Shown here piece after piece: positions 315-58,934 of a DNA stretch of 64,000 nt (position 1 is its first letter; each line of letters starts with the position of its first letter). The DNA lies in the IMG/VR virus record IMGVR_UViG_3300025133_000029, positions 97,003 through 161,002 of that record; one strand, 5' to 3'. The notes beneath the pieces were generated by a model. The model had not been told where the DNA came from, searched no databases, and saw only the letters and a list, made by a program, of their open reading frames with translations. Origin of the DNA: a virus. A program made the position numbers and the translations under genes.

Positions 315-3300
315 ATGTCGGGAAAGATGAACTTGACCTTTGATGAAAGCGGTCAACTGAAAAGTGTGAATATCTCTGGTGATATTCCTCCAGATGCTCA
401 AGAACACGTCAAGCGAGCTTTGGGCTGGGAAGGGATGGAGGAAGAAGGATCTTTAGACGCTAAAGATTTGAATCATCCGACAACACCTCCGGGTGATAAA
501 CAAGACTTTGGGATGGAGACAGGAGATCCATCTTTGGATCAATCGCATGAGGAGCATGGTTCATTTCCTCACTCCGCTCCACCGAGTCTGGATCCTCCTC
601 CTCCTCAAGAGGATCCCGCGAATCATCCTCTGGAGACAGCTAATCCAAGAGCATCCGGTAATTCCTCTATGGGTCCTTTGCCGGTTATGCAGGATGCAGG
701 GATGGCAGGAGGGCCAGTAAATCCTCCCGATCCAGATTCCTTTATGACAACACCACCTCCGGAACTATCAGCTGGAACAGTTCGAGATTTGTATGGTCCG
801 AGTCCGGGGTCAGCAGAAGACGGGTTTCATGTGGCTCCTCCTGGTGAGAATGAACCAATCCTCAATCAAATGGTTCAAGATCAGCAGATGGAAGAGATGG
901 GTGCTTCCCCGGAGGCAGTCGTTGATATTCCGAGGGGGATTTCTCAGGAGCAATTTGCTCAACTGCCTCCTGAAGAACAGGAGGAATATCATGCTCTCCT
1001 GAGTCGTATGAACGATGCTATTGATGGGCACCAACATCAAACATTTCGTACATTGATAGGTCGTGTGCAAGAATTACAGCGGAAGATGAAGTCCTTTGCG
1101 CCAGAGCCCATGCAAGAGATGCCAGAAGTTCCGCCACCGCAGTATGCCAAGTCGGTGTCGGGGTATGATGTTTCTTATTATCTTGGAAGAGAAGGAAGTC
1201 TGCGAAAATCAGACGAAGATTCTCCGATGAGTGCAGACGGTCCGAATTTGAGATCGGCGGTTTCTTTGTCTACACCTTCTAGCAAGATGGATTCACCGGG
1301 GTCCGAAGGATCTGGTGGAGGCTTGTCTTCAGGAGAGTCGACATCTTCCTCGACTGCCTCCCCCGGTTCCTCGGTGAAGCAGAGTTCACTCTTCTCGTCT
1401 GGATCAGGATCAAATAAATCTCCTGGTCTTGGGTCCTCCTCGAGTTCAGATGAACCCGACTTGTCATCTTTTCCGGTTAGGCATGTGGCTCCGGGTAAAT
1501 TTCAAGAAAGCCAAGACAGTGGCGATAGTGCGTCTGTAGAAAGTACTGGATCGAGTGGGGTTTTCGGGGGTAGTAATGATGATGATGTTGATATCTCTTC
1601 GTTTCCAGTTCGGCATGTAGCGCCGAGCGGTCCCAGCGGAGGGAGCGGTGTGGATGATGGGAGAGAGCGGACAAACCTGCAGGCTCCTGCAGATGTTTTC
1701 GGTCGTCATTTGGATTCAAAAGGGGATCTTCATTCAAGAGGATCTCTCCATAGAATGAAACATCCAAAGTTTCATCATAGTCAGTCTCATGCTCGCTTAG
1801 TAAGTACGGGGAGCAGTCATCCCCACGAAGATCATGGTCAGATGGAGAATTATCTTCACGATCTTCTTAATCATCCCGATCATGCGGAGAGTTCCACGAA
1901 ACTTCGCGAACTTCGTGAGAAGTATGGAGAGGATTTTACTCCTTACGTCATGTCTTGGTTTGAGCACAAGCACCACTATGACCCGGAGCATCCGGAGCAA
2001 AATAGGGGTTCAAGAGCTTCTCGTGGTTCTGATGGCATTGTACCAATGATACAAGGGAAGTCCCATAATGGGCAGGGAGCACATATGTTCCAGTTCCAAG
2101 AGGGACCACACCCAGTTCATCATGGTTATGGGGGACCAGCCGCGACGGCAACTGGTCTAACGCAGGCTAAATGGCAGGATCGAGATGCTCGTGGGGCTTG
2201 GCACCAAGCCATTGCACGAACTCATTCGAACGAAGAAAACAATCACCCCAGCAACGTTGATTTTGAATTTCAGGGTGTGCCTCACACAGTTCAAATTCAT
2301 CCGGACCTATATGAGGATGTTGCTTCTGGTGAGATTTCGCCCCTCATGGCTTATCATCGAACGATGGAGATTTTAAGGGCGGAGAGTCCCGAGAAGCTAC
2401 GTTGGGGGATAAAGGACAGAGAGAATCCAGATAGATATCATGCTTATGAGCAGCAAGGGATGTCTGCGGGAGGAAAAACCAAGAGAATCGCAAATGGCCT
2501 AGCTGCGGATCAAGGGCACTACTTAGATGTCTTGGGACACGATGGTTCCTTACATGGGGAGCAATTACCCAACTGGGGAGATGATTTCAGTAGACAACAG
2601 CATTGGTTCTTTCATACCACTCAAGATGGATTTCTAGGTGGTATGAGTGACGAAGATGTTGATCTGGGAAGAATATTTGGTAAAGATAACCAATCCCTTC
2701 AAGATGGATTTTTGAAAGCTGCTCGTAGAGAAGGCAAAAAAGGACTTCATGGTAAGTTGAGTCCTTCGGGGTATAACCAGCGTCATTATTTGTATCACAG
2801 TGAGGATGATGATGCTCATCTGGGCGCGAGGTCGAAGGCTGCATTGCAGAGTGGTCGTTCTCATGTGGAGACATTCCGAAATGAAGACGGATCTCCACGA
2901 GCATCGTTGTTTCGGAGAGAGATTGGTCCCGATGCGAGTGATACTCGTCCAAGTTCACAGCCGTATGTTTTGGTGGAGCATAGTACGGATGATAAAGGAA
3001 ATCCGACACCAGGAAATAAGTGGTTTACCGCAGGAAAGGAAGGACAGGATCGTGTTTACTTTGGAACGGAGCATGGTGCTCGTCACGCGATAGATTTATT
3101 TGATCGGGTGAAGCGTGGTCAGCAGCATCCTAATGGGATTCATCAAGCGTATGCAGATTTGCAACTGCGAGAGAAGTGCCATCCCGCAATACGTGAACAA
3201 ATGGAACAACAATTTCCCTTGCTTTCGCGTATTCAATTTGGGGAGTTGCCTTATCAAGCAGTAGAGAAAGAAGTTCGACTTGGAACAGGCAAAGGTGGTG

Positions 3301-5258
3301 CGGATAAAACGTACCGAATGAGGTCGTTGAATCCTGTTATTACGGATGAAGAGTTCTGGGGAGACTACGAGTCTGTTCTGGCCACACGCGGGTCGCTGCG
3401 CCCTGAAGGGGAACAAGGTCAAGGATCTTTGCGTGCTCGTTTTGCTAATTCTGGCATGGTGGGTGAGATGTTCCCCATGATAGATAAAGCGATACGAGAA
3501 ACGAAGAATGCATGGGGACAGTTTGATGCTAAACATTGGCGTCACGATGCAAATGGAAATGTTGATTCCGACTACCAGCAAATGTTCATCGAGGCGGTCA
3601 GGGCAATCAGAGGAAAGTTTTTGACTGTTCGGCAAGGGGCGATGAACCAAGGAGGTTTTGTTCCAAACCAGGGGCCAACACAGGCAGCGCATCGTGGTAA
3701 AGGTGAAAGGGGGAAAGATTATGCTCCTCCAGGACGTCGGTGGGGAGCGGAGTGGAATGCGGGGCAGGGTAATTCCTTTATTGGATCCTATATCAGCACG
3801 CTCTTGCGATCTCAGGGTGGTCCTTTATCTAACTATTATCGTGACTATGTTGACCATGGTGCTAGCATTCCAGAAGATGTTTGGAAGAAAGAATTCCTGG
3901 ATGATTGGAAGCAAACTCAGGTAGATCAGTGGAATGTGGAGATTGGCCCATTTATACCCGAAGAGGAGCAGAGGAGTTTATTTAATGAGTTCGTAAAAGA
4001 CTTGCGGGGTATTGGGAATAGAAGTCAGGCCAGAGAGTTTTATCGAAGAAACCGTGGATGGGCGATGTATCCACAGTATAGGAAGAAGATAGGGCAGGGT
4101 GATCTGAGTGAGCGAACGGGTGTTGGGCATGGGGCAGATTATGCTTCTCAGGGGAGGCGTGAGGAGATCGCAGATGCGACGAGTGCTAGCATGGGGATGC
4201 TCAACCCAGAAGAAGCGATGATGGAGAAAGAGAGATTGGGGGGGAGTTATGCAGATAACTTATTATCGCTTGCCCCTGAATCTTCGGATTCGGAATCTGG
4301 TGTTGGGGGTCTTGATGCTTTAGCAGCTTTTGATCAAGGTGGAGAGGTGTCGGAAGAGGAACAGCGTTTTCATGACAGCATGGCTCGTATAAAAGGTGAA
4401 AAGAACGATCCTTCAAAGGAACTGTCAATCAAGGCAGGAGCGTATGTTCGGAGAAATGTCAACGCAGAGATGGATGCGTTGGTAAAGAATCACCCTGAGT
4501 TAACACAGGGGGTAGATTTGGACGAAGATGGTGATCATAACTTTCTTGACAACCATATCTATTGGCCCATCTATGATGCTTATCAGGCAATAATGACGGA
4601 GAAGGTGCTAAGGGCATCGGGGAAAGTGGTTAACAACGAAAATCTAATATCTCTGGGAAGCAGAATATTGGCTCGTTACATTTATGATCAGCATGGTGGT
4701 GAGATTGACTCCTTTGATCGAGAAGACATACAGCGCCTTGCAGAGATGAGTCGAAAGTATATTGAGCCTCTTGTGGAGAATCAAGAGCTTATGCAGGCTT
4801 TGACTAGCCATGGAAAGGCATCAACTCGAAAAAGTCTCTCTGGTTTAGATGCGGGACATATTTTGGCAACGAAACGACTGATACAGCAGAAGCGGAATAG
4901 TGTTGTGAAGTCCATATTGGATGCGGTTGCTCCTGAAAACGACATCAAGCGACTGGTTCTCTTGCGTCTCATTAAGTCACTCCGAAGTGGTGAGTTACTC
5001 AAGAGCCGTGGAGAAAGTTTAGTTGAATTGACGAGTCGATATCACCCAAAGATTTCAGAGTTTGTGGATTCAACGACTCCTCAAGAGTCGCTTCGACATG
5101 TATTGTCTTGGTATGCAGAGTTTCGCCATCATGAATTGTTCAAGGGTCTACTGGATCATGTTCAAGCGGAAATACGCTTAGATGAGGCGGATGCGCTTCA
5201 CAAGTCTGCGAAATTGAGGTTCGTATCTGCGTTTTATAATCCCTTACAGAGTAATTAG
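315..5258 (+). CDS. large (1647 aa) putative internal head/ejection protein; low-complexity N-terminus; possible sigma-like segment
   Basis: SD GGAGA before ATG; upstream of protease/scaffold/MCP; about 9 x-x-K-[S/G] motifs clustered near the ends (e.g. YAKSV, LRKSD, VVKSI, LIKSL, LLKSR, LHKSA); internal repeat D(L/I)SSFPVRHVAP x2. Confidence 0.75.
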   Translation: MSGKMNLTFDESGQLKSVNISGDIPPDAQEHVKRALGWEGMEEEGSLDAKDLNHPTTPPGDKQDFGMETGDPSLDQSHEEHGSFPHSAPPSLDPPPPQEDPANHPLETANPRASGNSSMGPLPVMQDAGMAGGPVNPPDPDSFMTTPPPELSAGTVRDLYGPSPGSAEDGFHVAPPGENEPILNQMVQDQQMEEMGASPEAVVDIPRGISQEQFAQLPPEEQEEYHALLSRMNDAIDGHQHQTFRTLIGRVQELQRKMKSFAPEPMQEMPEVPPPQYAKSVSGYDVSYYLGREGSLRKSDEDSPMSADGPNLRSAVSLSTPSSKMDSPGSEGSGGGLSSGESTSSSTASPGSSVKQSSLFSSGSGSNKSPGLGSSSSSDEPDLSSFPVRHVAPGKFQESQDSGDSASVESTGSSGVFGGSNDDDVDISSFPVRHVAPSGPSGGSGVDDGRERTNLQAPADVFGRHLDSKGDLHSRGSLHRMKHPKFHHSQSHARLVSTGSSHPHEDHGQMENYLHDLLNHPDHAESSTKLRELREKYGEDFTPYVMSWFEHKHHYDPEHPEQNRGSRASRGSDGIVPMIQGKSHNGQGAHMFQFQEGPHPVHHGYGGPAATATGLTQAKWQDRDARGAWHQAIARTHSNEENNHPSNVDFEFQGVPHTVQIHPDLYEDVASGEISPLMAYHRTMEILRAESPEKLRWGIKDRENPDRYHAYEQQGMSAGGKTKRIANGLAADQGHYLDVLGHDGSLHGEQLPNWGDDFSRQQHWFFHTTQDGFLGGMSDEDVDLGRIFGKDNQSLQDGFLKAARREGKKGLHGKLSPSGYNQRHYLYHSEDDDAHLGARSKAALQSGRSHVETFRNEDGSPRASLFRREIGPDASDTRPSSQPYVLVEHSTDDKGNPTPGNKWFTAGKEGQDRVYFGTEHGARHAIDLFDRVKRGQQHPNGIHQAYADLQLREKCHPAIREQMEQQFPLLSRIQFGELPYQAVEKEVRLGTGKGGADKTYRMRSLNPVITDEEFWGDYESVLATRGSLRPEGEQGQGSLRARFANSGMVGEMFPMIDKAIRETKNAWGQFDAKHWRHDANGNVDSDYQQMFIEAVRAIRGKFLTVRQGAMNQGGFVPNQGPTQAAHRGKGERGKDYAPPGRRWGAEWNAGQGNSFIGSYISTLLRSQGGPLSNYYRDYVDHGASIPEDVWKKEFLDDWKQTQVDQWNVEIGPFIPEEEQRSLFNEFVKDLRGIGNRSQAREFYRRNRGWAMYPQYRKKIGQGDLSERTGVGHGADYASQGRREEIADATSASMGMLNPEEAMMEKERLGGSYADNLLSLAPESSDSESGVGGLDALAAFDQGGEVSEEEQRFHDSMARIKGEKNDPSKELSIKAGAYVRRNVNAEMDALVKNHPELTQGVDLDEDGDHNFLDNHIYWPIYDAYQAIMTEKVLRASGKVVNNENLISLGSRILARYIYDQHGGEIDSFDREDIQRLAEMSRKYIEPLVENQELMQALTSHGKASTRKSLSGLDAGHILATKRLIQQKRNSVVKSILDAVAPENDIKRLVLLRLIKSLRSGELLKSRGESLVELTSRYHPKISEFVDSTTPQESLRHVLSWYAEFRHHELFKGLLDHVQAEIRLDEADALHKSAKLRFVSAFYNPLQSN

Positions 5259-5392
5259 TTTTATAGAGGAGAAGAGTGTCTGGTTTTCTTCGAATCTTTA
5301 GAGTCTAAAGATTTCCTGATATGTTGATGGTGTGTCAATTGTCTTTATGGATCTTTAGACTCTAAAGATTTTCTTATTATTTGGATGGTGTA

Positions 5393-8021: not shown

Positions 8022-8211
8022 TCTCTCTTAGCGTTGCCGCGCTCAGAGAATAAAAAGGCAGGTTTACTTTTCATGAAATGGAATCTTTAGAACTCAAAAG
8101 ATCTTCTGGCAAACACAAAGTCAAAAATCTTTAGATTCTAAAGATTCTAAAAGAAGACGTAGCCTCCTTTTGTCTCTTTAGAAACTCCCTCTTCACTTAG
8201 GAGAAGAAAAG

Positions 8212-9702
8212 ATGTACCCACCCGTCAGTCTTTCTCAATATAACGAGATGGGCTTGCATGGTTTTGGACATGGAACTCGACAGCAAGTCGACGAACTGAA
8301 CAAAGCCCTCTCCGCAGGCTACGTCACAGATCGGACCAACATGACAGGCGGCAACGCACTTCGTGTCGAGTCTTTGGAAGAATCTTTGAAGGTTCTCACC
8401 TTCACCGATCGCCACCTTAAGCTCTGGCCCAAAATCCACAAGAGCCCCGCGTACTCCACTGTAGAAGAATACAATCAGCTTACGAGCTATGGGAATGATT
8501 TCTACGGTCCCTTCATTGGAGAGGGACAAACTCCTCAGTCGAATGACTCCAACTTCCAGCGTAAAACTGCGCTCGTGAAGTTCATGGGCACGACCCGAGA
8601 AGTTTCACACCAAGCCACTCTCGTCCATCCAGCACACGGTGACTTGATTGCGCTCGAGAACCAGAACGGAATCATGTGGCTCCTTCGCCAGATTGAAGTC
8701 TTCTTGTTCAAAGGAAATCGAAACCTCGCCTTCAGTGGTGAGAGTGTGATGTTCGATGGGCTCGATCAACTGATCGATTCGAGCAACTATCTCGACGTTG
8801 AGGGTTCCCCTCTTCAAGAGAGCGACTTCGAAGAAGCCAGCAACCTGCTCGCCGAAAACTACGCCTTCCCCACTGACGCCTTCCTCGGCTTCCGTCCCAT
8901 GTCGGACCTCGTGAAGACCTTCTATCCCCGCCATCGTGTGCAGCTTCCTTCCCCCACGGATGGTCGCATTGGACAAGCCGTAACAAGCATGTCCACACAA
9001 GCGGGTGTGTTGAACTTCAACGCAGACGTCTTCATCCAACGACCTGAGACTGCTCCCGACACTGTTCGCGGTCCCTCCACTATGGTCCCCACCGCTCCTG
9101 CAGGATTCTCGACCCTCGCGGTTACCGTTTCGACAGACGGTGAATTCGATAAGAGCCAGGGTGCCGACGACGCCGTTTATGGATACAAGGTCTCGGCCTG
9201 TAACCAGTATGGCGAATCCGTGGCCTCTGTTGCCGCGATTACCCCCACCCTCACGGGCGCAAACGCAGAGGCGGGGCACGTCATCACCTTCGTCATCAAA
9301 AACGCCGCAGCGCTCACCAATCCTCCCGAATACTTTAACGTGTATCGGACCCTCGCTCTGACTGCGACGACAACCTTGTCCGACGTTCAAGCTCTCTCCG
9401 CTCTCGCGTTCTCTCGTATTCTTCAGGTCCGCGCACGATCCCAGGCCGCAAACGGTTTGACTCCTGCCTCTCCTGGTGTTGAGACAGACAAGAACCAATT
9501 CATGCCATTCACGGAGATGGCCTACGTTGGAGAGCTTTCTCCGCAGGTGATAACTTGTCGCCAATTGGCTCCTCTGATGAAGATCGACCTTGCCCTCCAA
9601 GGACCCGTCTATCGTTGGATGATCTTGGCGTACATGGTCCCGATTCTCTTCGCTCCGCTGAAGTTCATGAGAATTCTGAACATCGGTAGATTGGGTAGCT
9701 AG
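8212..9702 (+). CDS. major capsid protein, SPO1/phage K (Herelleviridae)-like
   Basis: GGNALRVESLE, STVEEYNQL, FDGLDQLID, VGELSPQV, LAPLMKIDLA, APLKFMRILNI match by eye the phage K MCP motifs (GALRRE, FDGLAKLID, VGEMSPQV, LPMMKLPLA, APKKWARIKNV); N-terminal LNK/A site; SD AGGAG. Confidence 0.93.
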   Translation: MYPPVSLSQYNEMGLHGFGHGTRQQVDELNKALSAGYVTDRTNMTGGNALRVESLEESLKVLTFTDRHLKLWPKIHKSPAYSTVEEYNQLTSYGNDFYGPFIGEGQTPQSNDSNFQRKTALVKFMGTTREVSHQATLVHPAHGDLIALENQNGIMWLLRQIEVFLFKGNRNLAFSGESVMFDGLDQLIDSSNYLDVEGSPLQESDFEEASNLLAENYAFPTDAFLGFRPMSDLVKTFYPRHRVQLPSPTDGRIGQAVTSMSTQAGVLNFNADVFIQRPETAPDTVRGPSTMVPTAPAGFSTLAVTVSTDGEFDKSQGADDAVYGYKVSACNQYGESVASVAAITPTLTGANAEAGHVITFVIKNAAALTNPPEYFNVYRTLALTATTTLSDVQALSALAFSRILQVRARSQAANGLTPASPGVETDKNQFMPFTEMAYVGELSPQVITCRQLAPLMKIDLALQGPVYRWMILAYMVPILFAPLKFMRILNIGRLGS

Positions 9703-11265: not shown

Positions 11266-11319
11266 AAAATGCTCCCTCGCGAATCTTTAGAGTCTAAAGA
11301 TTGAGAAAATGGATAGTTT

Positions 11320-13970: not shown

Positions 13971-13975
13971 TGTCT

Positions 13976-15327: not shown

Positions 15328-15771
15328 ATGTATATAGAATACAAATTTCTAAAAATACCTGAAAAATATTTAGATGCAGTAAGTGCGATGATTGCAGAGT
15401 ATTTATTTGGTTGGACTGATTTGGAGGAAGTAATTGTTTTTGACGATGAGGTTATCTGGTATGGAGTTGACGTATCAACGGGGCTAAGGTCTCCTGTTCA
15501 CAGCTATCATAATGTGACTGATATTCGAGTTTTTATCTTAGAGATGGCTAAGAAGGGATTGGAAGTTGATATAGGATCGTGTTTGTATTTATATCCAGAG
15601 CGATTTAGGTATTTGAGTACGGTGACGAAAATAAGAAAAAAAACAAAAGGTCCTGTAATCTTAGCAGAGCGATATGGGGATGTTTTGACTTTGACACTAC
15701 TAGAAGCTATTTTATGTTCTCTGGGTCACGAAAATGAGTTGGAAACACTGCGGCGAAATTATAACCTTTAG
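15328..15771 (+). CDS. phage ABA-sandwich-like domain protein
   Basis: DAVSAMIAEYLFGW...HSYH...LTLTLLEAIL pattern; similar to the genes ending at 17661 and 34664. Confidence 0.55.
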   Translation: MYIEYKFLKIPEKYLDAVSAMIAEYLFGWTDLEEVIVFDDEVIWYGVDVSTGLRSPVHSYHNVTDIRVFILEMAKKGLEVDIGSCLYLYPERFRYLSTVTKIRKKTKGPVILAERYGDVLTLTLLEAILCSLGHENELETLRRNYNL

Positions 15772-15868
15772 AGTCTAAAGATTTACGATAGAGTGATGGT
15801 GTTGAATTACAAGAGTCGAGGTAGACGAGGAACGGTCTTTTAAGTTTTACAATTTAGGAGATTTGTTC

Positions 15869-18809: not shown

Positions 18810-18985
18810 TTTTTTATCTCCAAAACATTCTACTTGTGTTCTTAGATCTTTAGACTCTAAAGATCTTCTTTTTTTGGTCGAAGAGCTTCAAGAGGTTCAA
18901 GACACATACTGGAAAATAACATTCTTTTTCTTTCTTCGAGTAACTCGATTATTTTCCTCCTTTCTTCTTCTTTTTTAGTAGAAAG

Positions 18986-23116: not shown

Positions 23117-23278
23117 GGTGGCCTCCTTTGTGGTTTTGTAGCCATATTTATTTCTTCGCTAACAAAAGAAGCAAACCATTTACCCTTTAATTATAAGAAG
23201 ATCTTTAGACTCTAAAGATTCTGATATTTCTACACTGAGTTGTTATTGTCTTATAAAATAAATAAGGAGATTTATTAT

Positions 23279-26878: not shown

Positions 26879-27043
26879 ATTATGGCACCTCTTTTTCAAA
26901 ACTTTATACTTTTCCAAGATACAGTGGTCTTGTGAAAGGTACAATCTTTAGAGTCTAAAGATTATATAGATGGGGTGGGGAGAGGATTTAGATTAGGAGT
27001 GTGGGGGAGGGGAAGTGGTGGGATTGGGGTGGGGTGTTTGGGC

Positions 27044-28497: not shown

Positions 28498-28529
28498 AGT
28501 TCTTTTCTTCTTTAGACTCTAAAGAAATA

Positions 28530-31449: not shown

Positions 31450-31485
31450 GATTCTGTCCTTTCTTTGTAGAAAAATCTTTAGACT

Positions 31486-32274
31486 CTAAAGATCCATAAA
31501 GAGAGCTTGGTCTAATTCTTCTTTCAGAGACTCCAGATTTACACGGCGGGGAGCGTTCTCCAATATGAGGTTAGCAAGTCTTCTTCGCCACGCCACTTGC
31601 TCTCTCTCTCTTTGAATCCACAGGTAAAGCATCAGTTGTGTCTGACTCACAGCTGGTATTGGGGTGCGAACGTAGTATTTGTGTATGGCGGCATAGAGTA
31701 TTCCTGGGAGGAAATCGATGAGCCTCGAGTGCCTTTGAAGGGGAAGGCTTGTTCGGAGAAGAGATGTAGCGCTTCTTTTGTTGGGGATGTGATATTCTTC
31801 TGCGATGCGAATCCACTCTTCCAGGAGTTGGATGTGATGATTCCGCACTTCTTCCAACTCCTCCACCCCTTGATATTGTTGCACCCATGTTGGTATTTTG
31901 ATCTGGTGTGTTTCTTTCAGCAATTGCTTCATCAAGTCTACAACGATCTTGCAGCTTGTGGCCTCCAGCCACTCCTGTGTCTGGGGTTTGACGATGATGG
32001 CATTCTTCGGGAGGTCTCCAAAAATTGCGATCTGCCCTTCGAGGTAATCTATTCCAGAGAGGATGTGAAACCGAATATTAAACTTGCCTTCGTTGATATG
32101 AAAGTCACCTACGCAAGCATGGGGGGTTATTCTGGAGATGGCTTCGAGGCTTCTCTGGTATCTGTAGGGTGACATACAAACGAGGACATGCCTGTCCCAT
32201 TCAAGACGGGAGGCACCCCATAGGGACTCTCGCTTGTTGCTCTCGAGTATTTCCTTTGCTTCTTGGTCATTCAT
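31486..32274 (-). CDS. acidic-LF tail family protein
   Basis: Ends ESLKEELDQALFMDL; stop lies inside a palindrome copy. Confidence 0.7.
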   Translation of the reverse strand: MNDQEAKEILESNKRESLWGASRLEWDRHVLVCMSPYRYQRSLEAISRITPHACVGDFHINEGKFNIRFHILSGIDYLEGQIAIFGDLPKNAIIVKPQTQEWLEATSCKIVVDLMKQLLKETHQIKIPTWVQQYQGVEELEEVRNHHIQLLEEWIRIAEEYHIPNKRSATSLLRTSLPLQRHSRLIDFLPGILYAAIHKYYVRTPIPAVSQTQLMLYLWIQREREQVAWRRRLANLILENAPRRVNLESLKEELDQALFMDL

Positions 32275-33497: not shown

Positions 33498-33573
33498 CGC
33501 GCAAACTACTCCCTGAAATTATCTAAGATCTTTACCAAAATCTTTAGACTCTAAAGATTTTCCTGTCGCGTTT

Positions 33574-34663: not shown

Positions 34664-35326
34664 TCATCTCTTCAACTCCCCACACAATGGAGCCACACCC
34701 AACACTCCATCACCCAAATCTTTAGACTCTAAAGATCCACCAACTTCTGAACCCAACTCACCACCCGCCAAACACTCACCACCCGCCAAACACTCACTAC
34801 ACGAATACTCCTCCAACACACCATCCACACCATAATAACCAGCAAACACATTCAACGCCGCAAACAAACCACATCCCACACACGAACCCTCCAAACCATC
34901 CCTACCCACAAACCTAACCCAATACCTCTCACCACACAATACATCAAAACTCTCATCCTCCAACGTACACACATAACCCAAACGACGCATACCACCCCAC
35001 AACTCAAACATACCCCTACCCGACCAATAATATGGTAACTCCTCACCACCCAATATCATTCCACCCATCCTCACACCCACCCATCCCCTAAACCCCCTCG
35101 CCTTCCTTATCTTACTCCAACCCAAACACCTACCCACATACTTGTCTATCTCCCTACTCCCCTCCAATACACTAACACCCAAGCCACCCAGCACATCACC
35201 ACATAATCCCAATAACCCATCCTCATACGGATGCACACCCACACCCTCCAATGAAGGCATCTCAACCACTACACCCAAGCCACCCATACCCACCCTCTCC
35301 CTATACCCACCCAAACCAAATATCAT
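34664..35326 (-). CDS. Gly/Val-skewed ABA-sandwich-like protein
   Basis: IDKYVGRCLGW...LPYYW...LFAAL; SD GAGG; composition follows the local G/T skew. Confidence 0.55.
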   Translation of the reverse strand: MIFGLGGYRERVGMGGLGVVVEMPSLEGVGVHPYEDGLLGLCGDVLGGLGVSVLEGSREIDKYVGRCLGWSKIRKARGFRGWVGVRMGGMILGGEELPYYWSGRGMFELWGGMRRLGYVCTLEDESFDVLCGERYWVRFVGRDGLEGSCVGCGLFAALNVFAGYYGVDGVLEEYSCSECLAGGECLAGGELGSEVGGSLESKDLGDGVLGVAPLCGELKR

Positions 35327-35552: not shown

Positions 35553-35920
35553 ATCTTTAGACTCTAAAGAAATACATCATCTAATTCCTCACTGAACCAT
35601 AGAGGATTCTTCTCAGACCCTCTCTGAGATTAGAGAATCCCACCTAGTCCTCTCGGACCCTCTCTGAGATTAGAGAATCCCACCTAGTCCTGTGAGGATT
35701 TCAGGGCATTCTCTAATCCTCTCGGACCCCATCTAATCTTAGAGAGGGCCACCTAGTCCTGTGAGGATTCCAGAGAATTCTATAATCCTCTCGGACCCCA
35801 TCTAATCTCAGAGAGGGTCTATTGCCAGCCTATCTAATCTCAGAGAGGGCTTATTGCGAGGATTCTAGAGGACTAGATGGGATTCTCTAATCTCAGAGAG
35901 GGTCTATTGCCAGCCTAGAC
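35553..35920. other. putative replication origin (iteron-like repeats at a strand-skew inversion)
   Basis: 17-mer CCCTCTCTGAGATTAGA forward at 35618 and 35658, reverse at 35732(1 mm), 35801, 35833, 35886; 40-bp and about 69-bp direct repeats; + strand C/A-rich to the left and G/T-rich to the right. Confidence 0.65.
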
Positions 35921-36731: not shown

Positions 36732-37059
36732 GTGGGGTTATCCTTTTTATATGGTGTGGTGATCCTCTTTCTTGTGTTGCTATCGTCCTGTCTGCGTATT
36801 GTATAGAAAGCAAAGCATTTACGTGTGGTTAGTCTTGGTGCGGGAGGACTTGGTGTACTGTCTGTAAAAATGGAGAATGTGGGGATTGTCCGAAAAAAAA
36901 AGATCCGGACAGTGAGCGGGTTTGATTAGGGTCTCTCACAGGGGAAGTAAGAGCTTTTTTGGTGGGGATTGTGGTTTTTGTGAAAAAGGGTAGTTTTGGG
37001 GTGTTTTTGGTGGGGAAAGGTGTGGATCTTTAGAGTCTAAAGATTTTCATGTAGAGGAC

Positions 37060-37100: not shown

Positions 37101-37104
37101 GCCT

Positions 37105-39686: not shown

Positions 39687-39808
39687 GGTAGCTCCTGGGT
39701 GGTGGGGGGGTGTTTTTTTATTAGTTGCTTCGTGAATGAAAGAAAGCAAAGCATTTACGTGAGGGGAAATCTTTAGAGTCTAAAGATTTTGGATAGAGGT
39801 GTTGTGGG

Positions 39809-41087: not shown

Positions 41088-41238
41088 CGTTGACTCCTTA
41101 TTGGTTACTAGTGTTTTCTCATATATGAAAAAAAACAGAGCATTTACGTGTATTGGGAAGTGAGGAAAAAAGGAAGGGTAGAGAAAGATGGGGAGAGAAA
41201 TCTTTAGACTCTAAAGATTTCTGTGTGTGTTGGTGGGG

Positions 41239-45077: not shown

Positions 45078-45192
45078 TGCTATTGCCTCGCTAGGTGGTG
45101 GGTGGGTTGACTTGTCGCTCATGTAAAAAAGCAGAGCATTTACGAGAAGAATCTTTAGAGTCTAAAGATTCTGAGAAGTGTTTGCGCAGGAA

Positions 45193-45233: not shown

Positions 45234-45278
45234 TTGTTTGATTGTGGTGGTGACAGAATCTTTAGACTCTAAAGATTC

Positions 45279-49808: not shown

Positions 49809-50047
49809 GGCATGGTAGCTCCTTGTTAGCTAAGTGGCTCACTCGTATAAGAAAGCAGAGCATTTACGAGAAGTGTGTGGTGCAAGAATCTTTAGAGTCT
49901 AAAGATTCTTGTGTTAGAGAAAAACAAGATAGAGGATGGGCGCGAGGATGCAGGTGAAGCAGATAAATAGTTCAAGGTCTCGACGCCAGAGGGGTTGAGG
50001 GCTTTTGAGGTTATGGTGGTGCTTGTACTTTCGCAGGGGTGCAGTTT

Positions 50048-50527
50048 TCACAGGGGGACGTCCTCGCAGTATGGGGGGAGACCCAACTTGTTGATGGGCT
50101 CGGTTCCGACAACCCGACCTTTTTTTCGAATAAAGCGAGGGGAGTCGGGGATGGGGGCCTCGGAGGTGCCGGAGGTGCCGGGGGGGCGCGGAGGGGAAGG
50201 GAGCGTAGGGGGAGGGTTCTCCATTCGCTCGTTTGCGATGCGGGTGAGTTGCGCGGCGTGAAACATTGCGATCTCTCTTGCCTCATCAATAAATTTGCCC
50301 GACAGCCTCCTATCGCCGAGAACCCATCGGGCGAAGTAGGTGCCTCGGGCAACAGTTTTAGTGGCGAACCCTCGCCTGTTGTTCTTATTGACCGATCCGG
50401 TGGACCCCTCTCGTTCATCATCGGTTTGTTGTTCGTAGAGCGAGACCATCGCTCTTTCCACGGCGCTGGGTCGCTGGAGGAGTTCTTCAATCTCGCCTCG
50501 GGTCCAGGGTCGGGTTCGTCTACTCAT
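50048..50527 (-). CDS. hypothetical phage protein
   Basis: AVERAMVSLYEQQTDDE...NRRGF...QL; motif at 50576 plus SD. Confidence 0.75.
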   Translation of the reverse strand: MSRRTRPWTRGEIEELLQRPSAVERAMVSLYEQQTDDEREGSTGSVNKNNRRGFATKTVARGTYFARWVLGDRRLSGKFIDEAREIAMFHAAQLTRIANERMENPPPTLPSPPRPPGTSGTSEAPIPDSPRFIRKKGRVVGTEPINKLGLPPYCEDVPL

Positions 50528-50635
50528 GATAGCTCCTTGTGTTAGCTAAGTGGTTCACTCACATAAGAAAGTAAAGCATTTACGTGTGGGACGTCGCACA
50601 AGAGGTGCCCCCGCCCTCCCCCTGTTGCTGGCAGG

Positions 50636-51082
50636 CTAGAACCCACCCAACTGTTGTCGAAGAACATAGTCGTGTTCGATCATGATGTCTCGGAAGTCAG
50701 ACTCGCTCATAATCGAGAAGGGGTGCTTGTTGTTGTGAGTGTCATAGATGATGGTGGGAACGTAGATGTCCCCCATATTGATGTAGGAGAAGTTTTTGTC
50801 TTCCGTTCCGACCGGACCCTCGAAGGTCCAGCCCTCGACCCCGCAGCCTTCGAGGAGTTGGTTGCAGGCGTACATGAAGCGCATGGCGAGGGACACCAGC
50901 GATCGGTTTTGATCCACATAGTCTTGGACCTGGGTGTAGGCGGTTGTGAGGATGTTCTCCAGCATACACTGGGCCACGTATTCGCCGCTTGTGAGGGCAT
51001 CGAGGTAATCCTCGATAAGAGAGAGAGCGTGCTGGGTGCCGGGGAGTTCTTGAATCTCTGCTTTCATCGTCTTGGTCATCAT
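50636..51082 (-). CDS. hypothetical phage protein
   Basis: GVEG...YINMGDIY.PT; motif at 51133 plus SD AAGGAG. Confidence 0.75.
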   Translation of the reverse strand: MMTKTMKAEIQELPGTQHALSLIEDYLDALTSGEYVAQCMLENILTTAYTQVQDYVDQNRSLVSLAMRFMYACNQLLEGCGVEGWTFEGPVGTEDKNFSYINMGDIYVPTIIYDTHNNKHPFSIMSESDFRDIMIEHDYVLRQQLGGF

Positions 51083-51183
51083 GGGGTAGCTCCTTGTGTT
51101 AGCTAAGTGGTTCGTATGTATAAAAAAGCAGAGCATTTACGAGAAGTGGGTTGGTGTCCTCTTGAGGGGACACGTCCATTCCT

Positions 51184-51801
51184 CTAGATATATCCTCGGT
51201 CTGTAAAGGAGAGGTAATCAGTGTTGGAGATGATGATGTGGTCGATAATCTCCAGACCAAGGAGCTTTGCAATTTTCTGGAGTCTGGTGGTGAGGGCTCG
51301 ATCTTGTGTGGAGGGTTCCACGTTCCCGCTCGGATGGTTGTGAATAAGAATCAAGCGCAGAGCTTTCATCCGCAGGGCGGGGGCGAAGATCTCTTGTGGC
51401 GATAGGGGGCAGAGGGACACCGACCCCTTGCTCACGACCTCGGTGTCTATGATGCGGTTTTTGTTGTCGAGGAAGAGTACTGCAAAGTGCTCCTGTTCAG
51501 CGGTGCCGATGCGGGTTCGCCAGTGTTCCCACACGGATCGGGAGGATGTGAATGCTTCGCCTCGCATGAGGGGAGTGTTCTGAGCCTGCATTCCGATTGC
51601 CATGGCAGCGCGAAGGCGCTCGATGGCTTTGCGTCCGACGTATCTGCATTGGAGGAGGTCTTGGTCGCCTGCGGTGAGAAGTTGTCGGGGGTTGTTGTAT
51701 CGTTCCAACACTCCATCGGCAGCTTTGTCGCCGAGAAGAGCACGCAGGTTCCTCTCGAAGACATCTGGCTCGTAGGTGGGGAGGGATTCGTGAATCAACA
51801 T
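51184..51801 (-). CDS. radC: RadC-family JAB-domain protein
   Basis: QEHFAVLFLDNKNRII, HNHPSGNVEPSTQD, IIDHIII, HhH-like VGRKAIERL. Confidence 0.92.
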   Translation of the reverse strand: MLIHESLPTYEPDVFERNLRALLGDKAADGVLERYNNPRQLLTAGDQDLLQCRYVGRKAIERLRAAMAIGMQAQNTPLMRGEAFTSSRSVWEHWRTRIGTAEQEHFAVLFLDNKNRIIDTEVVSKGSVSLCPLSPQEIFAPALRMKALRLILIHNHPSGNVEPSTQDRALTTRLQKIAKLLGLEIIDHIIISNTDYLSFTDRGYI

Positions 51802-51900
51802 GGTAGCTCCTTATAGCTAGGTGGTTCACTTGTATAAAAAAGCAAAGCATTTACCAGACGCAGTTATCCTGCAGATCTTTAGAGTCTAAAGATCTTGGTT

Positions 51901-52407
51901 TTATTTGGAGTAGCAGACCTCGGCGCAGACAATATTGTTTTGCCTGGACTTGAACTTCGGTGCCCCACAGTGGTGACACTTGAAGGGTTCGATGCTTTGG
52001 ATTCTTTCGATCGCGTTGATTACGTTATCGACAATCTCCTGACATGGGACTCCTGGTTCTCGCTTGATCCGGATCTCTCTTGGCTTCGCTAGGATGCGCT
52101 CTGTACCATCGGAAGCCGTATAGATGATGTGGAGGGTGAGGGGGTTCAGTCCGTCGTCGAAGACAAGGGCGCTTTCAGGCAGCCCCAGGAGAACGAAGAG
52201 GGACTTTCTGTCTTCGATCGGCTTGCGATAACCCACCTCGTTCGAGGATGTTGTAAACCGCAGGTAGTCATCTGCGATGAGGAGGTTACGAAGACTGTTG
52301 ACCAGCCCGGTGCGTTGCTCATGGTCTTCTGGATCATATGTCGAGGATGGACTGTAGGTCGAAGACACCGGCAACGGGGTCTGGTCCGAGTGGGGGGGCG
52401 AATTCAT
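51901..52407 (-). CDS. protein with C-terminal Zn ribbon
   Basis: CHHCGAPKF...CAEVC; start with SD GGAG. Confidence 0.65.
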   Translation of the reverse strand: MNSPPHSDQTPLPVSSTYSPSSTYDPEDHEQRTGLVNSLRNLLIADDYLRFTTSSNEVGYRKPIEDRKSLFVLLGLPESALVFDDGLNPLTLHIIYTASDGTERILAKPREIRIKREPGVPCQEIVDNVINAIERIQSIEPFKCHHCGAPKFKSRQNNIVCAEVCYSK

Positions 52408-52801
52408 AGCGTGATGCTCCATGGCTTGCGTGGCGCTCAAGAAGTGCCTTCGCGGTTAGGTGTTCCCAGCCCATGGAGGTTATCAATGTTTGTTCAACAT
52501 CAGAGAGGGTGTCTGCAAGGTATCGCGCTGTTATTGCAATGGTGCGAGCGAGTTCCCCTTGCTTGAATCCTGCTCCCGTTACGGTGGATGTCATACAAGG
52601 GGAACCGTCTGCATTCAGCGTGCGGACGCGATAGTGTGCGAACAATCTCCCATACACATCGTGTTTTCTTGCACAGATCTCGACAATCTCGGATTCTCTT
52701 CCAAAGGGGGTGAGTCCGACATCCCCGACTTTTAGTTCGCGGATAAAGTTATAGTTGGGGATAATCCATATCAAGTTATCGTTGCATCGCTTGTGTAACA
52801 T
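52334..52801 (-). CDS. hypothetical protein
   Basis: Motif at 52852 plus SD GAGG. Confidence 0.62.
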   Translation of the reverse strand: MLHKRCNDNLIWIIPNYNFIRELKVGDVGLTPFGRESEIVEICARKHDVYGRLFAHYRVRTLNADGSPCMTSTVTGAGFKQGELARTIAITARYLADTLSDVEQTLITSMGWEHLTAKALLERHASHGASRYEFAPPLGPDPVAGVFDLQSILDI

Positions 52802-52907
52802 CGGCCACCTCTAGGGCTGGGGGTTAGCTTTCACAATAAAAAGAAAACAGAGCATTTACGTACCAAATATTGAAAGGCGGCGAGCGCCTCCCCCCGTTTT
52901 GCTGTTT

Positions 52908-53525
52908 CTAGCAGGCTTGCGCCGATTCGTCGGTGCTTTGGTTGTTGTGGCTCATGCCGTTAGAGGGTGTCGTTTCCTTCGAGGCTTGGTGCGCTTGTTT
53001 CGCTTCGTCGGCTTCGCTCGGAGAGAGCTTTTTGCCCCGGTTGTTGTAGGCGACGTCGATCTGGTTATCGAAAATGGATCGGGTGCCGTCCGTGTTGCCG
53101 TAGACATAGCCCATGAAGGGCATGCCTTCGCCTTCGAACATGAAGAATCGGTGGGCAGCGTTCGAGGGTGTCCAGTATCTGATCTCGTGTCCCATAAACT
53201 CGCCGTTTTCGCCGTTTTCAGCCAGATGGTGTCGGGGCTTGACGTGGATGGCGTCGAGTCCATCCATCAGGCGTCGGGCTTCGAGGTAGACGCATCCGGT
53301 GGGGGCTTGCTCGTCGGGTCGGATGGGGCTAATGATCCGTCCTCTCATGTTTGTGTCACAAAGCACACCGTGGAACACGGTGTAGGTGCGATCGACATCG
53401 TCAAACTTGCGGGATTCGGCGATGAGGATGCCGTCGTTGTACACCTGGACAAAGGCGTCGGTTCTCTCAAGAAGTTTGCGAATCTTGGAACTGGGGGAGA
53501 AGTGGGTGGATTCTTGCTTGCTCAT
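52908..53525 (-). CDS. paralogue of the gene ending at 43484
   Basis: See 43484; motif at 53595. Confidence 0.8.
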   Translation of the reverse strand: MSKQESTHFSPSSKIRKLLERTDAFVQVYNDGILIAESRKFDDVDRTYTVFHGVLCDTNMRGRIISPIRPDEQAPTGCVYLEARRLMDGLDAIHVKPRHHLAENGENGEFMGHEIRYWTPSNAAHRFFMFEGEGMPFMGYVYGNTDGTRSIFDNQIDVAYNNRGKKLSPSEADEAKQAHQASKETTPSNGMSHNNQSTDESAQAC

Positions 53526-53695
53526 TTTTCTTTTCCTCATGCTAGGTGGGCTTCGGGTTATCCGTTGCCTTGTTCACTCGTATAAAAAAGTAGAGCATTT
53601 ACATGTCAAATCTTTAGAGTCTAAAGATTTCCAGAGGTGTTCCTTGCAGCAAATAGCGCTAGATGAAAGGGCCATAGCGCTATCAGTTGGGGTTA

Positions 53696-54193
53696 CTAGC
53701 CCTGGGGATAGACAACGTGCCCCATGCCCATGTTATCGCTTTGACAAAGGACAGTGGTGGCCGCATGCGCTTCCTGAAGGTAGTCTACGTTCACGGCGGG
53801 ACCTTCCCAGAAGTTGCGACCCCGATAATGATAGGGGTTGAGTCCCGCAGCTCTCATCTCCGCGACAAAGGTTCTATAGGTCTCTTTGTCGTATTCGGGC
53901 AGGGCAGGCTCCTTGTCACCATCCACATCGATCGAGATCCAGGTATCGTTATAGGAAGAGAGGGCGTGTTCGAACTCGGTGCTTTGGGGTTCAACTTCAA
54001 TACACAAGCCAATCCCACCACCTCTTTCCTCAAAATAATCAAAGAGCGCAGTCGCATCCTCGGGATGCCGATTGATGTGTTTTTGAATCTCGTCGAAAAG
54101 CACCAGGAGGAGGCGCTCAACGATCAAAGGTTCTTTGTGGTGGTGGAGGGATAATAATTTTGCCTGCGCGGTTAGCCAAGTGATTCGTTCCAT
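53696..54193 (-). CDS. hypothetical phage protein
   Basis: YRGRNFWEGPAV...DNMG...VYP; motif at 54239 plus SD AAGGAG. Confidence 0.75.
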   Translation of the reverse strand: MERITWLTAQAKLLSLHHHKEPLIVERLLLVLFDEIQKHINRHPEDATALFDYFEERGGGIGLCIEVEPQSTEFEHALSSYNDTWISIDVDGDKEPALPEYDKETYRTFVAEMRAAGLNPYHYRGRNFWEGPAVNVDYLQEAHAATTVLCQSDNMGMGHVVYPQG

Positions 54194-55149: not shown

Positions 55150-55293
55150 GTCCCTACTCCTATGCTAAGGGATGTGCTTCACATGTATAAAAAAGCAGAG
55201 CATTTACGATAAAAATCTTTAGAGTCTAAAGATCCGAACGAGAAAAGCCCCCTTTCGGGGGCGTGGGGAGGGGGGAGGGGGGCGGGGGGCGGC

Positions 55294-58287: not shown

Positions 58288-58481
58288 CTAAGGCTTAGGG
58301 GGGGCTTAGGGGGGGCTTAGGGGGGGCTTAGGGGGGCTTAGGGGCTAACACATACATATAGCCGGGGCTAACACAAACAAGCCCCTTGTTATAAAAACAA
58401 AGGGCTTAGTAAATGCTCTAGTTTTTTATACCTATAAATCTTTAGACTCTAAAGATCCCCCTCACCCCCCCTTTTGTTGTT

Positions 58482-58769: not shown

Positions 58770-58934
58770 TGTGTTTATCCTCGTTATAGGGTTCAAACTT
58801 ATAAGAACCTAGAGCATTTACCTAAAAAGCCCCTTGTTATAACAACAAAGGGCTTAGTAAATGCTCTAGTTTTTTATACCTATAAATCTTTAGAGTCTAA
58901 AGATCCCCCTCACCCCCCTAAGCCTAGCCCTATC

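What the first reader, a model, noticed from the sequence alone, without database searches (positions are those of the whole stretch)
449..58904. A 19-bp palindrome with a GANTC centre recurs about every 2-4 kb across all functional modules
Seen: about 26 copies of ATCTTTAGA-N-TCTAAAGAT, mostly intergenic, in head, accessory, origin and cassette regions. Copy 28508 has a compensatory change at both ends (TTCTTTAGA C TCTAAAGAA). The central base varies (G, C, T) but keeps GANTC. At least 7 copies sit within about 30 bp upstream of a GTAAATGC motif (23201, 39769, 45151, 49888, 51875, 53610, 55215); others do not. Inference: a binding site for a dimeric phage protein. The module-independent, semi-regular spacing fits genome organisation (parS/matS-like, packaging or ejection, nicking) at least as well as a simple operator. 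It could be sensitive to GANTC methylation. Candidate binders in the window are the ParB-like 42558 and the DNA-binding modules at 13128, 21823 and 22262.
Basis: partly seen in the sequence, partly recalled or inferred. Interest (0 to 1): 0.8.

Follow-up and report, generated by a model that had tools for sequence, protein, structure and literature searches.

The report
Evenly spaced palindrome sites across phage
A large uncultured phage repeats one exact 19-25 bp DNA palindrome about every 3 kb over its whole genome; these are most likely docking sites for a two-part DNA-binding protein, probably the phage's own ParB-type protein, an arrangement known from plasmid RK2 but which I did not find described for phages.

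Summary
The window has 25 copies of ATCTTTAGA-N-TCTAAAGAT (0 expected). The 161-kb contig has 54, and a separate 66-kb structural-module contig of the same phage type has 16.

What the copies look like:
- The core CTTTAGA-S-TCTAAAG never varies, and A/T-rich flanks extend the symmetry to about 25 bp.
- Flanks are otherwise unrelated, so this is not a mobile repeat.
- Spacing is far more even than chance (CV 0.51, longest gap 5.7 kb, P<5e-5).
- Several copies sit inside long genes, in the one frame that stays open, and fill gaps that would otherwise be 7-8.5 kb.
- The copies show no polarity relative to transcription. They occur between convergent genes and between a terminator and a promoter, and they fold weakly (-4.9 kcal/mol). 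This argues against a terminator or promoter role.

The phage encodes a ParB/Noc/KorB-fold protein 3.1 kb upstream of the window, and no ParA. The half-site TCTAAA is one base from KorB's GCTAAA and from Vibrio parS2's TGTAAA. A sister phage with a 36%-identical ParB uses a different palindrome, GTTAGGwCCTAAC, and in both phages copies lie just upstream of parB.

Best reading: a genome-wide array of docking sites for the phage ParB. Binding itself is not shown. Earlier agents in this scan reported the same array on overlapping windows of this genome.

The parts
449..467 (.). palindrome copy with 1 mismatch (GACGC centre), inside the 1647-aa gene 315-5258
   Evidence: Reads in frame as G-S-L-D-A-K-D. 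Without it the gap would be 7.3 kb.
5294..5312 (.). exact copy, first of a pair 57 bp apart
   Evidence: Intergenic, just after the 1647-aa gene.
5351..5369 (.). exact copy, second of the 57-bp pair
8127..8145 (.). exact copy with centre T, 66 nt upstream of the major head protein gene 8212-9702
11283..11301 (.). exact copy, intergenic
15764..15782 (.). copy with 1 mismatch (ACC...), overlapping the stop codon of gene 15328-15771
18846..18864 (.). exact copy, intergenic
23201..23219 (.). exact copy in the divergent gap between genes 22262-23116(-) and 23279-23923(+)
26944..26962 (.). exact copy, intergenic
28508..28526 (.). copy with a symmetric change at both ends (TTC...GAA)
31475..31493 (.). 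exact copy, intergenic
33540..33558 (.). exact copy, intergenic
34718..34736 (.). exact copy, inside ORF 34664-35326(-) if that ORF is a real gene
35553..35571 (.). copy with 1 mismatch (...GAA)
37026..37044 (.). exact copy, about 25 nt from a CGAGC-(TA)n-GCTCG hairpin
39769..39787 (.). exact copy, 10 nt upstream of a minus-strand GTAAATGC promoter-like box, with a (TA)n hairpin on the other side
41200..41218 (.). exact copy, 52 nt upstream of a GTAAATGC box
45151..45169 (.). exact copy, 7 nt upstream of a GTAAATGC box
45258..45276 (.). exact copy, 107 bp from the previous one, with a (TA)n hairpin between them
49888..49906 (.). exact copy, about 20 nt upstream of a GTAAATGC box
51875..51893 (.). 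exact copy, 20 nt upstream of a GTAAATGC box
53610..53628 (.). exact copy, 7 nt upstream of a GTAAATGC box
55215..55233 (.). exact copy sitting between a canonical minus-strand terminator (55262-55247) and a GTAAATGC promoter-like box
58438..58456 (.). exact copy, 6 nt downstream of a plus-strand copy of the promoter-like 23-mer
58886..58904 (.). exact copy, duplicate of the 58438 arrangement

Best explanation
The palindrome (full form about RAA-ATCTTTAGA-S-TCTAAAGAT-TTY) is a high-affinity site on double-stranded DNA for a symmetric dimer of a phage-encoded protein. The most likely reader is the phage's own ParB/Noc/KorB-family protein, which has no ParA partner. That gene is at contig 92532-93884 on the + strand, 3.1 kb upstream of the window. 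About 70 sites tile the roughly 230-kb genome, with gaps under 6 kb on this contig. By analogy with ParB and KorB, dimers would load at each site, close as nucleotide-driven clamps and slide a few kb. The array would then cover the whole chromosome and allow genome-wide organisation, protection or long-range damping of transcription, including of parB itself. Shown here: the sites, their symmetry, the spacing statistics, the ParB-fold gene, the absence of ParA, the likeness of the half-site to known ParB-family sites, and the re-spelled sites in a sister phage. Inferred, not shown: that ParB is the binder, that it binds CTP and slides, and what the coverage achieves. The confidence of 0.55 is for the full ParB-array reading. 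That the element is a symmetric protein-binding site on double-stranded DNA, I hold at about 0.8.
For: 1. Sequence, not structure, is conserved. The core CTTTAGA-S-TCTAAAG is invariant in 70 of 70 copies. There is no tail of 3-4-mismatch copies beyond chance.
2. There is no polarity relative to transcription. The centre base on the coding strand is G in 26 sites and C in 18. The A-run upstream and T-run downstream are equal (3.77 vs 3.96, p=0.71).
3. Copies occur in tandem, divergent and convergent gaps. One lies between a terminator and a promoter (55215).
4. Flanks are unrelated.
5. Spacing is over-even: CV 0.51 and longest gap 5715 bp, never matched in 20,000 random or intergenic-only placements. 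The 66-kb contig has CV 0.46.
6. The two halves of the palindrome close two of the three reading frames on each strand. In-gene copies all use the one open frame (S-L-D/E-S-K-D/E). Five of eight fill gaps that would otherwise be 7.0-8.5 kb.
7. The ParB-family gene is well supported: PHROG 'ParB-like partition protein' E 9e-15; family profile against PDB gives Noc 5.6e-21, Spo0J 1e-17, KorB 1e-8; the AF2 core has pLDDT about 90 and Foldseek top hits are CTP-bound ParB, Noc and KorB.
8. No ParA was found in 227 kb.
9. The half-site TCTAAA differs by one base from KorB OB GCTAAA (PMC11790492) and from parS2 TGTAAA (PMC3688505). The odd length and the free S centre match OB.
10. Sister-phage contigs L056-L058 (ParB 34-38% identical, portal about 50%) carry GTTAGGwCCTAAC instead. 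Two copies lie 183-240 nt upstream of parB in L056 and two lie just upstream in L058. In this phage a copy lies 209 nt upstream of parB.
Against: - No binding data exist. Any phage-encoded dimeric protein would also have diverged along with the sister phage's site, so the ParB link rests on family likeness and on the position upstream of parB.
- The ParB box II reads GFSRFK instead of GERRxR (the family consensus is GFRR), so CTP binding is uncertain.
- Pfam ParB_N and HTH_ParB scores for the single sequence fall just under the curated cut-offs.
- The palindrome is the only strongly enriched motif upstream of non-early genes apart from the ribosome-binding site. Many copies lie only 14-30 nt before a start codon, sometimes right after a canonical terminator. 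Both fit a promoter role.
- Symmetric double changes at the ends (3 TTC..GAA, 1 AAC..GTT, against about 0.7 expected) hint at selection for base pairing.
- Some copies sit at the tip of much longer hairpins (contig 10039 and 66824).
- 24 viral contigs with more distant ParB relatives, and a contig with a 30%-identical portal, show no recurrent palindrome.
- The sister evidence covers only about 25 kb of DNA.
Confidence: 0.55

Rival explanations
1. The palindrome is the phage's middle or late promoter, or the site of a dimeric activator that overlaps the core promoter. One copy would head each transcription unit of about 3 kb.
For: It is the only conserved motif besides the ribosome-binding site upstream of non-early genes. 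It lies within 100 nt upstream of about 38 of 198 genes and often 14-30 nt before the ATG. At contig 31978 and at 23202 on the 66-kb contig, a canonical terminator directly precedes the palindrome, so the downstream gene needs a new start. TCTAAAGA matches 6 of 8 positions of the T4 late promoter TATAAATA (from my own memory). The density is similar to that of T4 late promoters (from my own memory). No separate phage RNA polymerase was found, so host polymerase with phage factors is plausible.
Against: The element is perfectly symmetric and has no polarity relative to the downstream gene. One copy lies between two convergent genes and supplies both stop codons (contig 51048). Copies lie inside genes, including the middle of a 2655-aa gene. 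In the early region the copies sit upstream of an already complete promoter motif. Over-even spacing and gap-filling in-gene copies are not expected of promoters.
Confidence: 0.17
2. The palindrome acts in RNA, as a hairpin that serves as a terminator or attenuator, a processing site, or a target for an RNA-binding protein between cistrons.
For: It typically sits between a stop codon (0-8 nt away in about 18 tandem junctions) and the next ribosome-binding site. A-rich and T-rich flanks extend the stem. Symmetric double changes at the stem end are over-represented. Two copies cap long, stable hairpins of -43 and -25 kcal/mol.
Against: The hairpin is weak: -4.9 kcal/mol for the 19-mer and -7.6 with A4/T4 flanks. 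The phage uses ordinary GC-rich terminators elsewhere, some of them right next to a copy. The stem interior shows no compensatory variation, and there is no excess of T downstream over A upstream. Exact copies occur inside coding regions. One copy lies between a terminator and a promoter, where little RNA is expected.
Confidence: 0.1
3. The copies are footprints or targets of DNA transactions other than regulation: a selfish short repeat, cassette-shuffling junctions like the PeSL elements of T4-type phages, or sites for nicking or packaging.
For: In the 45-59 kb cassette region, copies lie next to the repeated promoter at cassette borders. One cassette border is duplicated (58438/58886). The phage carries several HNH endonucleases and inteins.
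Against: Flanks are unrelated in nearly all copies. Copies are just as frequent in the replication and structural modules. Only 9 of 41 early-type promoters have a copy. Even spacing and in-frame copies within genes point to selection on position rather than spread by copying. Nick and packaging sites could not be tested.
Confidence: 0.06

Closest known systems
KorB and its 12 OB operators on IncP-1 plasmid RK2 (PMC11790492)
   Same: Both are odd-length perfect palindromes with a free G/C centre and nearly the same half-site (OB TTTAGC-S-GCTAAA, here TTTAGA-S-TCTAAA). Both have many copies dispersed over the whole replicon, some next to promoters and some far from them. Both are read by a ParB-fold protein; KorB is a CTP-driven sliding clamp that silences at a distance.
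   Different: There are about 70 sites over about 230 kb of a phage, against 12 over 60 kb of a plasmid. The spacing is strikingly even, and some sites are placed inside genes. By sequence the protein is closer to Noc and Spo0J than to KorB. No IncC/ParA partner was found. No KorA-like second operator was found: no second recurrent palindrome appears. Long Lys-rich N-terminal and acidic C-terminal tails are present.
Noc and its roughly 70 NBS sites on the Bacillus subtilis chromosome
   Same: Both involve a ParB paralogue without a ParA partner and tens of dispersed palindromic sites. Noc is the best-scoring solved relative of the phage protein (E 5.6e-21 with the family profile).
   Different: NBS sites (ATTTCCCGGGAAAT, from my own memory) are spread over 4 Mb and are not evenly spaced. 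Noc tethers DNA to the membrane to block division. Nothing here shows membrane binding.
ParABS partition systems, including V. cholerae ParB2/parS2 (PMC3688505), the P1 prophage system, and the dispersed centromere repeats of prophage N15 (N15 from my own memory)
   Same: Both involve a ParB-family reader. The parS2 half-site TGTAAA is one base from TCTAAA. N15 also scatters its sites over a phage genome.
   Different: No ParA was found in the 227 kb held. Partition needs only a few clustered sites, not about 70 evenly spaced ones.
Host Spo0J parS sites in the phage phi29 genome (PMC2731898; abstract and hit list only)
   Same: ParB-type sites are dispersed in a lytic phage genome.
   Different: In phi29 there are only a few sites and the host protein reads them. 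Here the phage encodes its own ParB, and the site changes along with that protein in a sister phage.
PeSL (promoter-early stem-loop) cassettes of T4-type phages (from my own memory; not checked in a paper)
   Same: A repeated promoter plus a short palindrome lie at the borders of small accessory gene cassettes, as at window 45-59 kb.
   Different: Here the palindrome is independent of the promoter: only 9 of 41 promoters have one. It also occurs at the same density in the replication and structural modules and inside genes.

Membership tests
ParB/KorB-type site-plus-clamp system | A protein with the ParB N-terminal (CTPase-fold) domain followed by a ParB-type HTH, encoded by the same replicon | tested here: met
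   Contig 92532-93884 (+). PHROG ParB-like E 9e-15. PDB hits Noc, Spo0J and ParB at E 6e-8 for the single sequence and 5.6e-21 with the family profile. Foldseek top hits are ParB-CTP, Noc and KorB. Single-sequence Pfam scores are just below the cut-offs.
ParB/KorB-type site-plus-clamp system | A short, near-perfect palindromic site resembling known family sites | tested here: met
   Half-site TCTAAA against OB GCTAAA and parS2 TGTAAA. Odd length with a G/C centre, as in OB.
ParB/KorB-type site-plus-clamp system | The protein binds the site specifically | not testable with these tools
   Only indirect support. The site is re-spelled (GTTAGGwCCTAAC) in a sister phage with a 36%-identical ParB. 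Sites lie upstream of parB in three lineages.
ParB/KorB-type site-plus-clamp system | Intact CTP-binding boxes (GERRxR box II, ENLQR box III) | tested here: inconclusive
   Box III (ENLQRKDLSP) is intact. Box II is GFSRFK in this phage and GFRR in the family consensus.
Classical ParABS partition system | A ParA-type Walker ATPase partner | tested here: not met
   PF13614 and PF01656 give no match in G000 plus G001, while the controls do match. The genome held may be incomplete.
KorAB regulon of RK2 | A second, KorA-type operator and partner repressor | tested here: not met
   The only recurrent palindromes in the contig are this one and (TA)n runs. No search for a KorA-type protein was made.
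Intrinsic (rho-independent) terminator | A stable GC-rich hairpin followed by a U-tract on the transcribed strand | tested here: not met
   Folding energy is -4.9 kcal/mol for the 19-mer. T downstream equals A upstream. Exact copies lie inside genes. The phage's canonical terminators are GC-rich.
Mobile short repeats (REP/MITE-like) | Copies share longer flanking sequence or a family structure | tested here: not met
   Flanks are unrelated except for overlapping neighbours, the promoter motif, a (TA)n hairpin and one duplicate.
CcrM-type GANTC methylation target | A GANTC-specific methylase, and biased use of GANTC | tested here: inconclusive
   GANTC occurs 794 times, close to expectation. 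The ParB_N-N6_N4 methylase is nearest to DpnA-type enzymes (1.4e-14), with CcrM at 7.8e-7. Its specificity is unknown.

The most novel reading that the evidence does not exclude
The array is not a partition or single-operon control device. It is a loading grid that lets a partner-less phage ParB, with histone-like Lys-rich and acidic tails, coat the entire phage chromosome with sliding clamps. This would amount to a phage-made chromatin that shields, compacts or globally times the genome. Site spacing would be held under about 6 kb by selection, even at the cost of writing sites into protein-coding sequence.
Probability: 0.3. Interest if true: 0.85.

Novelty: new variant of a known kind. Interest (0 to 1): 0.7.

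Why it matters
ParB-family CTP switches are known for chromosome and plasmid partition (ParABS), nucleoid occlusion (Noc) and plasmid-wide silencing (KorB). A virus that tiles its whole 230-kb genome with about 70 identical loading sites at controlled intervals, and has no ParA, would extend this switch to whole-genome coverage in a phage. It would also give a natural system for measuring how far such clamps travel, because the spacing limit of about 6 kb is a prediction. It would show selection on site spacing strong enough to shape coding sequence. The exact 25-bp site and its re-spelled sister form an orthogonal protein-site pair that could be used for DNA labelling or synthetic silencing. 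In three literature searches I found no paper describing such an array in a phage.

Tried and rejected
- Megablast of 20 kb against cultured phages gave nothing. The terminase and PolA are at most 30% identical to any cultured phage.
- A PolA-based locus search gave only 24%-identical relatives.
- 24 viral contigs with distant ParB relatives (22-31% identical) show no recurrent palindrome.
- P0003 and P0004 are not in viral contigs.
- The genome-contig scan returned only ordinary bacterial ParBs.
- A scan for TGTTAGGNCCTAACA in viral contigs gave only single, unrelated hits.
- A portal-based search found one 30%-identical relative with no array.
- No T7-type or multisubunit RNA polymerase and no Sigma70_r2 were found. 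The PF00940 control rang in no genome, so that negative is weak.
- A terminator role is rejected on energy, symmetry and in-gene copies. A mobile repeat is rejected on flanks.
- The window's own 'ParB-like' ORF 42558 and the 'DNA-binding modules' at 13128 and 22262 are rejected as binders. ORF 21823 matched no family.
- Complex prediction was not used, because it takes no DNA.
Full report
OBSERVATION. None appear in 100 dinucleotide-preserving shuffles. Twenty matches are exact. Copy 28508 has the symmetric end change TTC...GAA. Copy 449 breaks the GANTC centre (GACGC). The window is bases 97003-161002 of a 161,002-bp IMG/VR virus contig, G000, rated 68% complete. That contig holds 54 copies with up to two mismatches: 41 exact, 9 with one mismatch and 4 with two.

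A scan of IMG/VR for the exact pattern found two further contigs. G001 is 65.9 kb and has 16 copies. G002 is 25 kb, has 7 copies, and is 98.8% identical to part of G001. G001 encodes a portal with inteins, baseplate J and large tail proteins. It shares no DNA or protein similarity with G000 apart from the palindrome. A sister-phage contig (L056/L057, below) carries homologues of G000 genes and of G001 genes side by side. G000 and G001 are therefore complementary pieces of one phage type of about 230 kb, which carries about 70 copies.

ANATOMY. In a symmetrised count over the 70 copies, the core CTTTAGA-S-TCTAAAG is invariant. Positions 1-2 and 18-19 vary a little. The three bases on either side are A-rich on the left and T-rich on the right, so the element is really a 25-bp palindrome. 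The centre is G or C in 64 of 70 copies. Copies either fit within two mismatches or do not exist: 3-4-mismatch relatives are no more common than chance. Flanks of 120 nt are unrelated, except for overlapping neighbours, the early promoter motif, a (TA)n hairpin and one duplicated cassette border at 58438/58886. The copies are therefore not hitchhikers in a longer repeat.

The palindrome carries TAG and TAA on both strands, which closes two of the three frames on each strand. The copies that lie inside genes all use the remaining frame and encode S-L-(D/E)-S-K-(D/E) in acidic linker-like stretches. Examples are window 449, contig 42595, 59162 and 83793, and G001 62251 in a 2655-aa gene.

POSITION. 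By my own rough codon-usage gene model, 47 copies lie between co-directional genes, 8 in divergent gaps, 5 in convergent gaps and 10 inside genes. The model is unreliable in the 34-64 kb region of the window. In tandem junctions the copy is often 0-8 nt after the stop codon and 14-30 nt before the next start, so it fills most of the spacer. At contig 51048 two convergent genes both end on stop codons supplied by the palindrome.

In the window's early-type region, a 23-mer (GTAAATGCTCTGCTTTTTTATAC) precedes about 40 small genes. Seven of the 41 such motifs have a palindrome 7-52 nt upstream, and two plus-strand motifs have one 6 nt downstream. At 55215 the order on the minus strand is canonical terminator, then palindrome, then promoter motif. 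Little RNA is expected to cover that copy.

SPACING. Over G000 the mean gap is 2.9 kb with CV 0.51 and a longest gap of 5715 bp. Neither value was reached in 20,000 uniform placements, nor in 20,000 placements restricted to intergenic gaps. The window alone gives CV 0.59 (P about 0.004), and G001 gives CV 0.46 (P about 0.001). Removing an in-gene copy would open a gap of 7.0-8.5 kb in five of eight cases. The one long gap in G001 (8.1 kb) spans the portal gene, which has been lengthened by two inteins. This looks like selection on position along the chromosome.

DNA OR RNA, PROMOTER OR NOT. As RNA the 19-mer folds at only -4.9 kcal/mol, and at -7.6 with A4/T4 flanks. The phage's evident terminators are GC-rich hairpins with T-runs. 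Relative to the direction of transcription the element has no polarity. The centre base on the coding strand is G in 26 sites and C in 18. The A-run upstream equals the T-run downstream (3.77 vs 3.96, p=0.71). Exact copies sit inside genes. These points argue against a terminator, a processing site or a one-directional promoter.

Some points favour the rivals. The palindrome is the only conserved upstream motif outside the early region, besides the ribosome-binding site. Two copies directly follow canonical terminators. Symmetric double changes at the ends (three TTC..GAA and one AAC..GTT, against about 0.7 expected) hint at pairing. Two copies cap very long hairpins (contig 10039, 53-bp perfect palindrome, -43 kcal/mol; contig 66824, -25 kcal/mol). 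I found no phage RNA polymerase or Sigma70_r2 domain.

THE LIKELY READER. A lead from earlier notes of this scan pointed to a ParB/KorB-type protein, and I tested this independently. G000 has two ParB_N matches. One is a ParB_N-N6_N4 methylase fusion at 83739-85157. The other is a 450-aa protein at 92532-93884 (+), 3.1 kb before the window.

The 450-aa protein matches the PHROG family 'ParB-like partition protein' (E 9e-15). Among solved structures it matches Noc, Spo0J and ParB (E 6e-8). A profile of its nine closest relatives, taken from a search of 1.8 billion proteins, scores Noc at 5.6e-21, Spo0J at 1e-17 and KorB at 1e-8. The AlphaFold model has a confident core (residues 95-370, pLDDT about 90) between disordered Lys-rich and acidic tails. 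Its best structural matches are CTP-bound ParB, Noc and KorB. Box III (ENLQR) is intact. Box II is GFSRFK here and GFRR in the family. No ParA-type ATPase was found in G000 or G001.

The site resembles known ParB-family sites. KorB OB is TTTAGC-S-GCTAAA (PMC11790492) and the V. cholerae parS2 half-site is TGTAAA (PMC3688505). Here the half-site is TCTAAA, one base from each.

ORF 42558 matches nothing relevant. ORFs 13128 and 22262 match HNH endonuclease families. ORF 21823 matches nothing.

SISTER PHAGE. A metagenome scan with the ParB alignment found three contigs with ParB at 34-38% identity. L056/L057 also carry homologues of four G000 genes and of the G001 portal, the portal at about 50% identity. 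They lack the present palindrome. Instead they carry GTTAGGwCCTAAC, with the same odd-length architecture and a shared TTAG/CTAA core. There are three copies in L056, two of them 57 bp apart and 183-240 nt upstream of parB. L057 has one copy. L058 has two, just upstream of parB. In the present phage a copy (contig 92304) lies 209 nt upstream of parB. The site has thus changed spelling together with the phage's proteins, and it keeps a place in front of parB, as expected of an autoregulated ParB/KorB-type gene. This evidence covers only about 25 kb of DNA and does not single out ParB among phage proteins. More distant relatives show no array.

VERDICT. That the element is a symmetric protein-binding site on double-stranded DNA, placed under selection for even coverage of the genome, I hold at about 0.8. 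The purpose (organisation, protection or global damping of transcription) is inference. GANTC methylation sensitivity is untested: GANTC is not unusual in frequency and the specificity of the methylase fusion is unknown.

I did not find a phage-wide array of this kind described in the papers I searched. The closest described system is KorB with its 12 OB sites on RK2. Earlier agents of this scan reported the same array on overlapping windows of this same genome. My sister-phage, symmetry, gap-filling and ParA tests were made independently.

Noticed in passing
L016:10022-10074 (contig G000 10022-10074): A 53-bp perfect palindrome (AATAATGGGAAGGGGAG + palindrome copy + CTCCCCTTCCCATTATT, -43 kcal/mol as RNA) lies just upstream of a UvsW/ResIII-type helicase gene. 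It could be a strong bidirectional terminator or an origin-like cruciform. A second extended copy (A8-GGGAA-copy-TTCCC-T9) is at contig 66811-66855.
   Followed up: partly
window 37060-37105, 39815-39850, 45195-45240: Three long hairpins of the form CGAGC-(TA)n-GCTCG lie about 25-35 nt from palindrome copies 37026, 39769 and 45151. Their function is unknown; they could be terminators or easily melted DNA.
   Followed up: no
window 34000-64000: About 40 copies of a 23-mer, GTAAATGCTCTGCTTTTTTATAC, almost all on the minus strand, each lie 30-40 nt before a ribosome-binding site and ATG. The spacing of its two conserved parts does not fit a standard sigma-70 promoter. Many are preceded by GC-rich terminators.
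   Followed up: partly
window 58378-58456 and 58826-58904: Two near-identical units in which divergent copies of the promoter-like 23-mer flank one hairpin. The plus-strand copy points straight into a palindrome copy and then into the 3' end of a minus-strand gene. This could be an antisense or occluded promoter.
   Followed up: no
window 5294-5369; L056:8445-8514: Pairs of sites with the same 57-bp centre-to-centre distance occur in this phage and in the sister phage, upstream of parB in the sister. This may be coincidence or a preferred two-dimer geometry.
   Followed up: no
contig G000 51048-51066 (L018:11048-11066): Two convergent genes both terminate on stop codons (TAG on each strand) supplied by the palindrome itself.
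   Followed up: partly
window 8212-9702; window 13128-14021 and 22262-23116: 8212-9702 is the major head protein (PHROG 752, E 7e-98). 13128-14021 and 22262-23116 match HNH endonuclease families (PHROG 374 at 2.4e-34 and PHROG 3377 at 1e-4).
   Followed up: partly
contig G000 14176-17247 and 29455-31539; G001 49895-53761: Inteins, some with LAGLIDADG domains, interrupt the DnaB helicase, RecA and portal genes. The portal inteins lengthen the only 8-kb gap in the palindrome array.
   Followed up: partly
contig G000 83739-85157 (L020:3739-5157, minus strand): A ParB_N-N6_N4 DNA methylase fusion carries an exact palindrome copy in frame in its C-terminal tail. Its nearest solved relatives are DpnA-type adenine methylases.
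   Followed up: partly
window 60200-64000: Dense short repeats (GCTAGCCC and GCTAACCC units) lie between the last promoter-like motifs. There is no palindrome copy in the final 5.1 kb of the contig.
   Followed up: no
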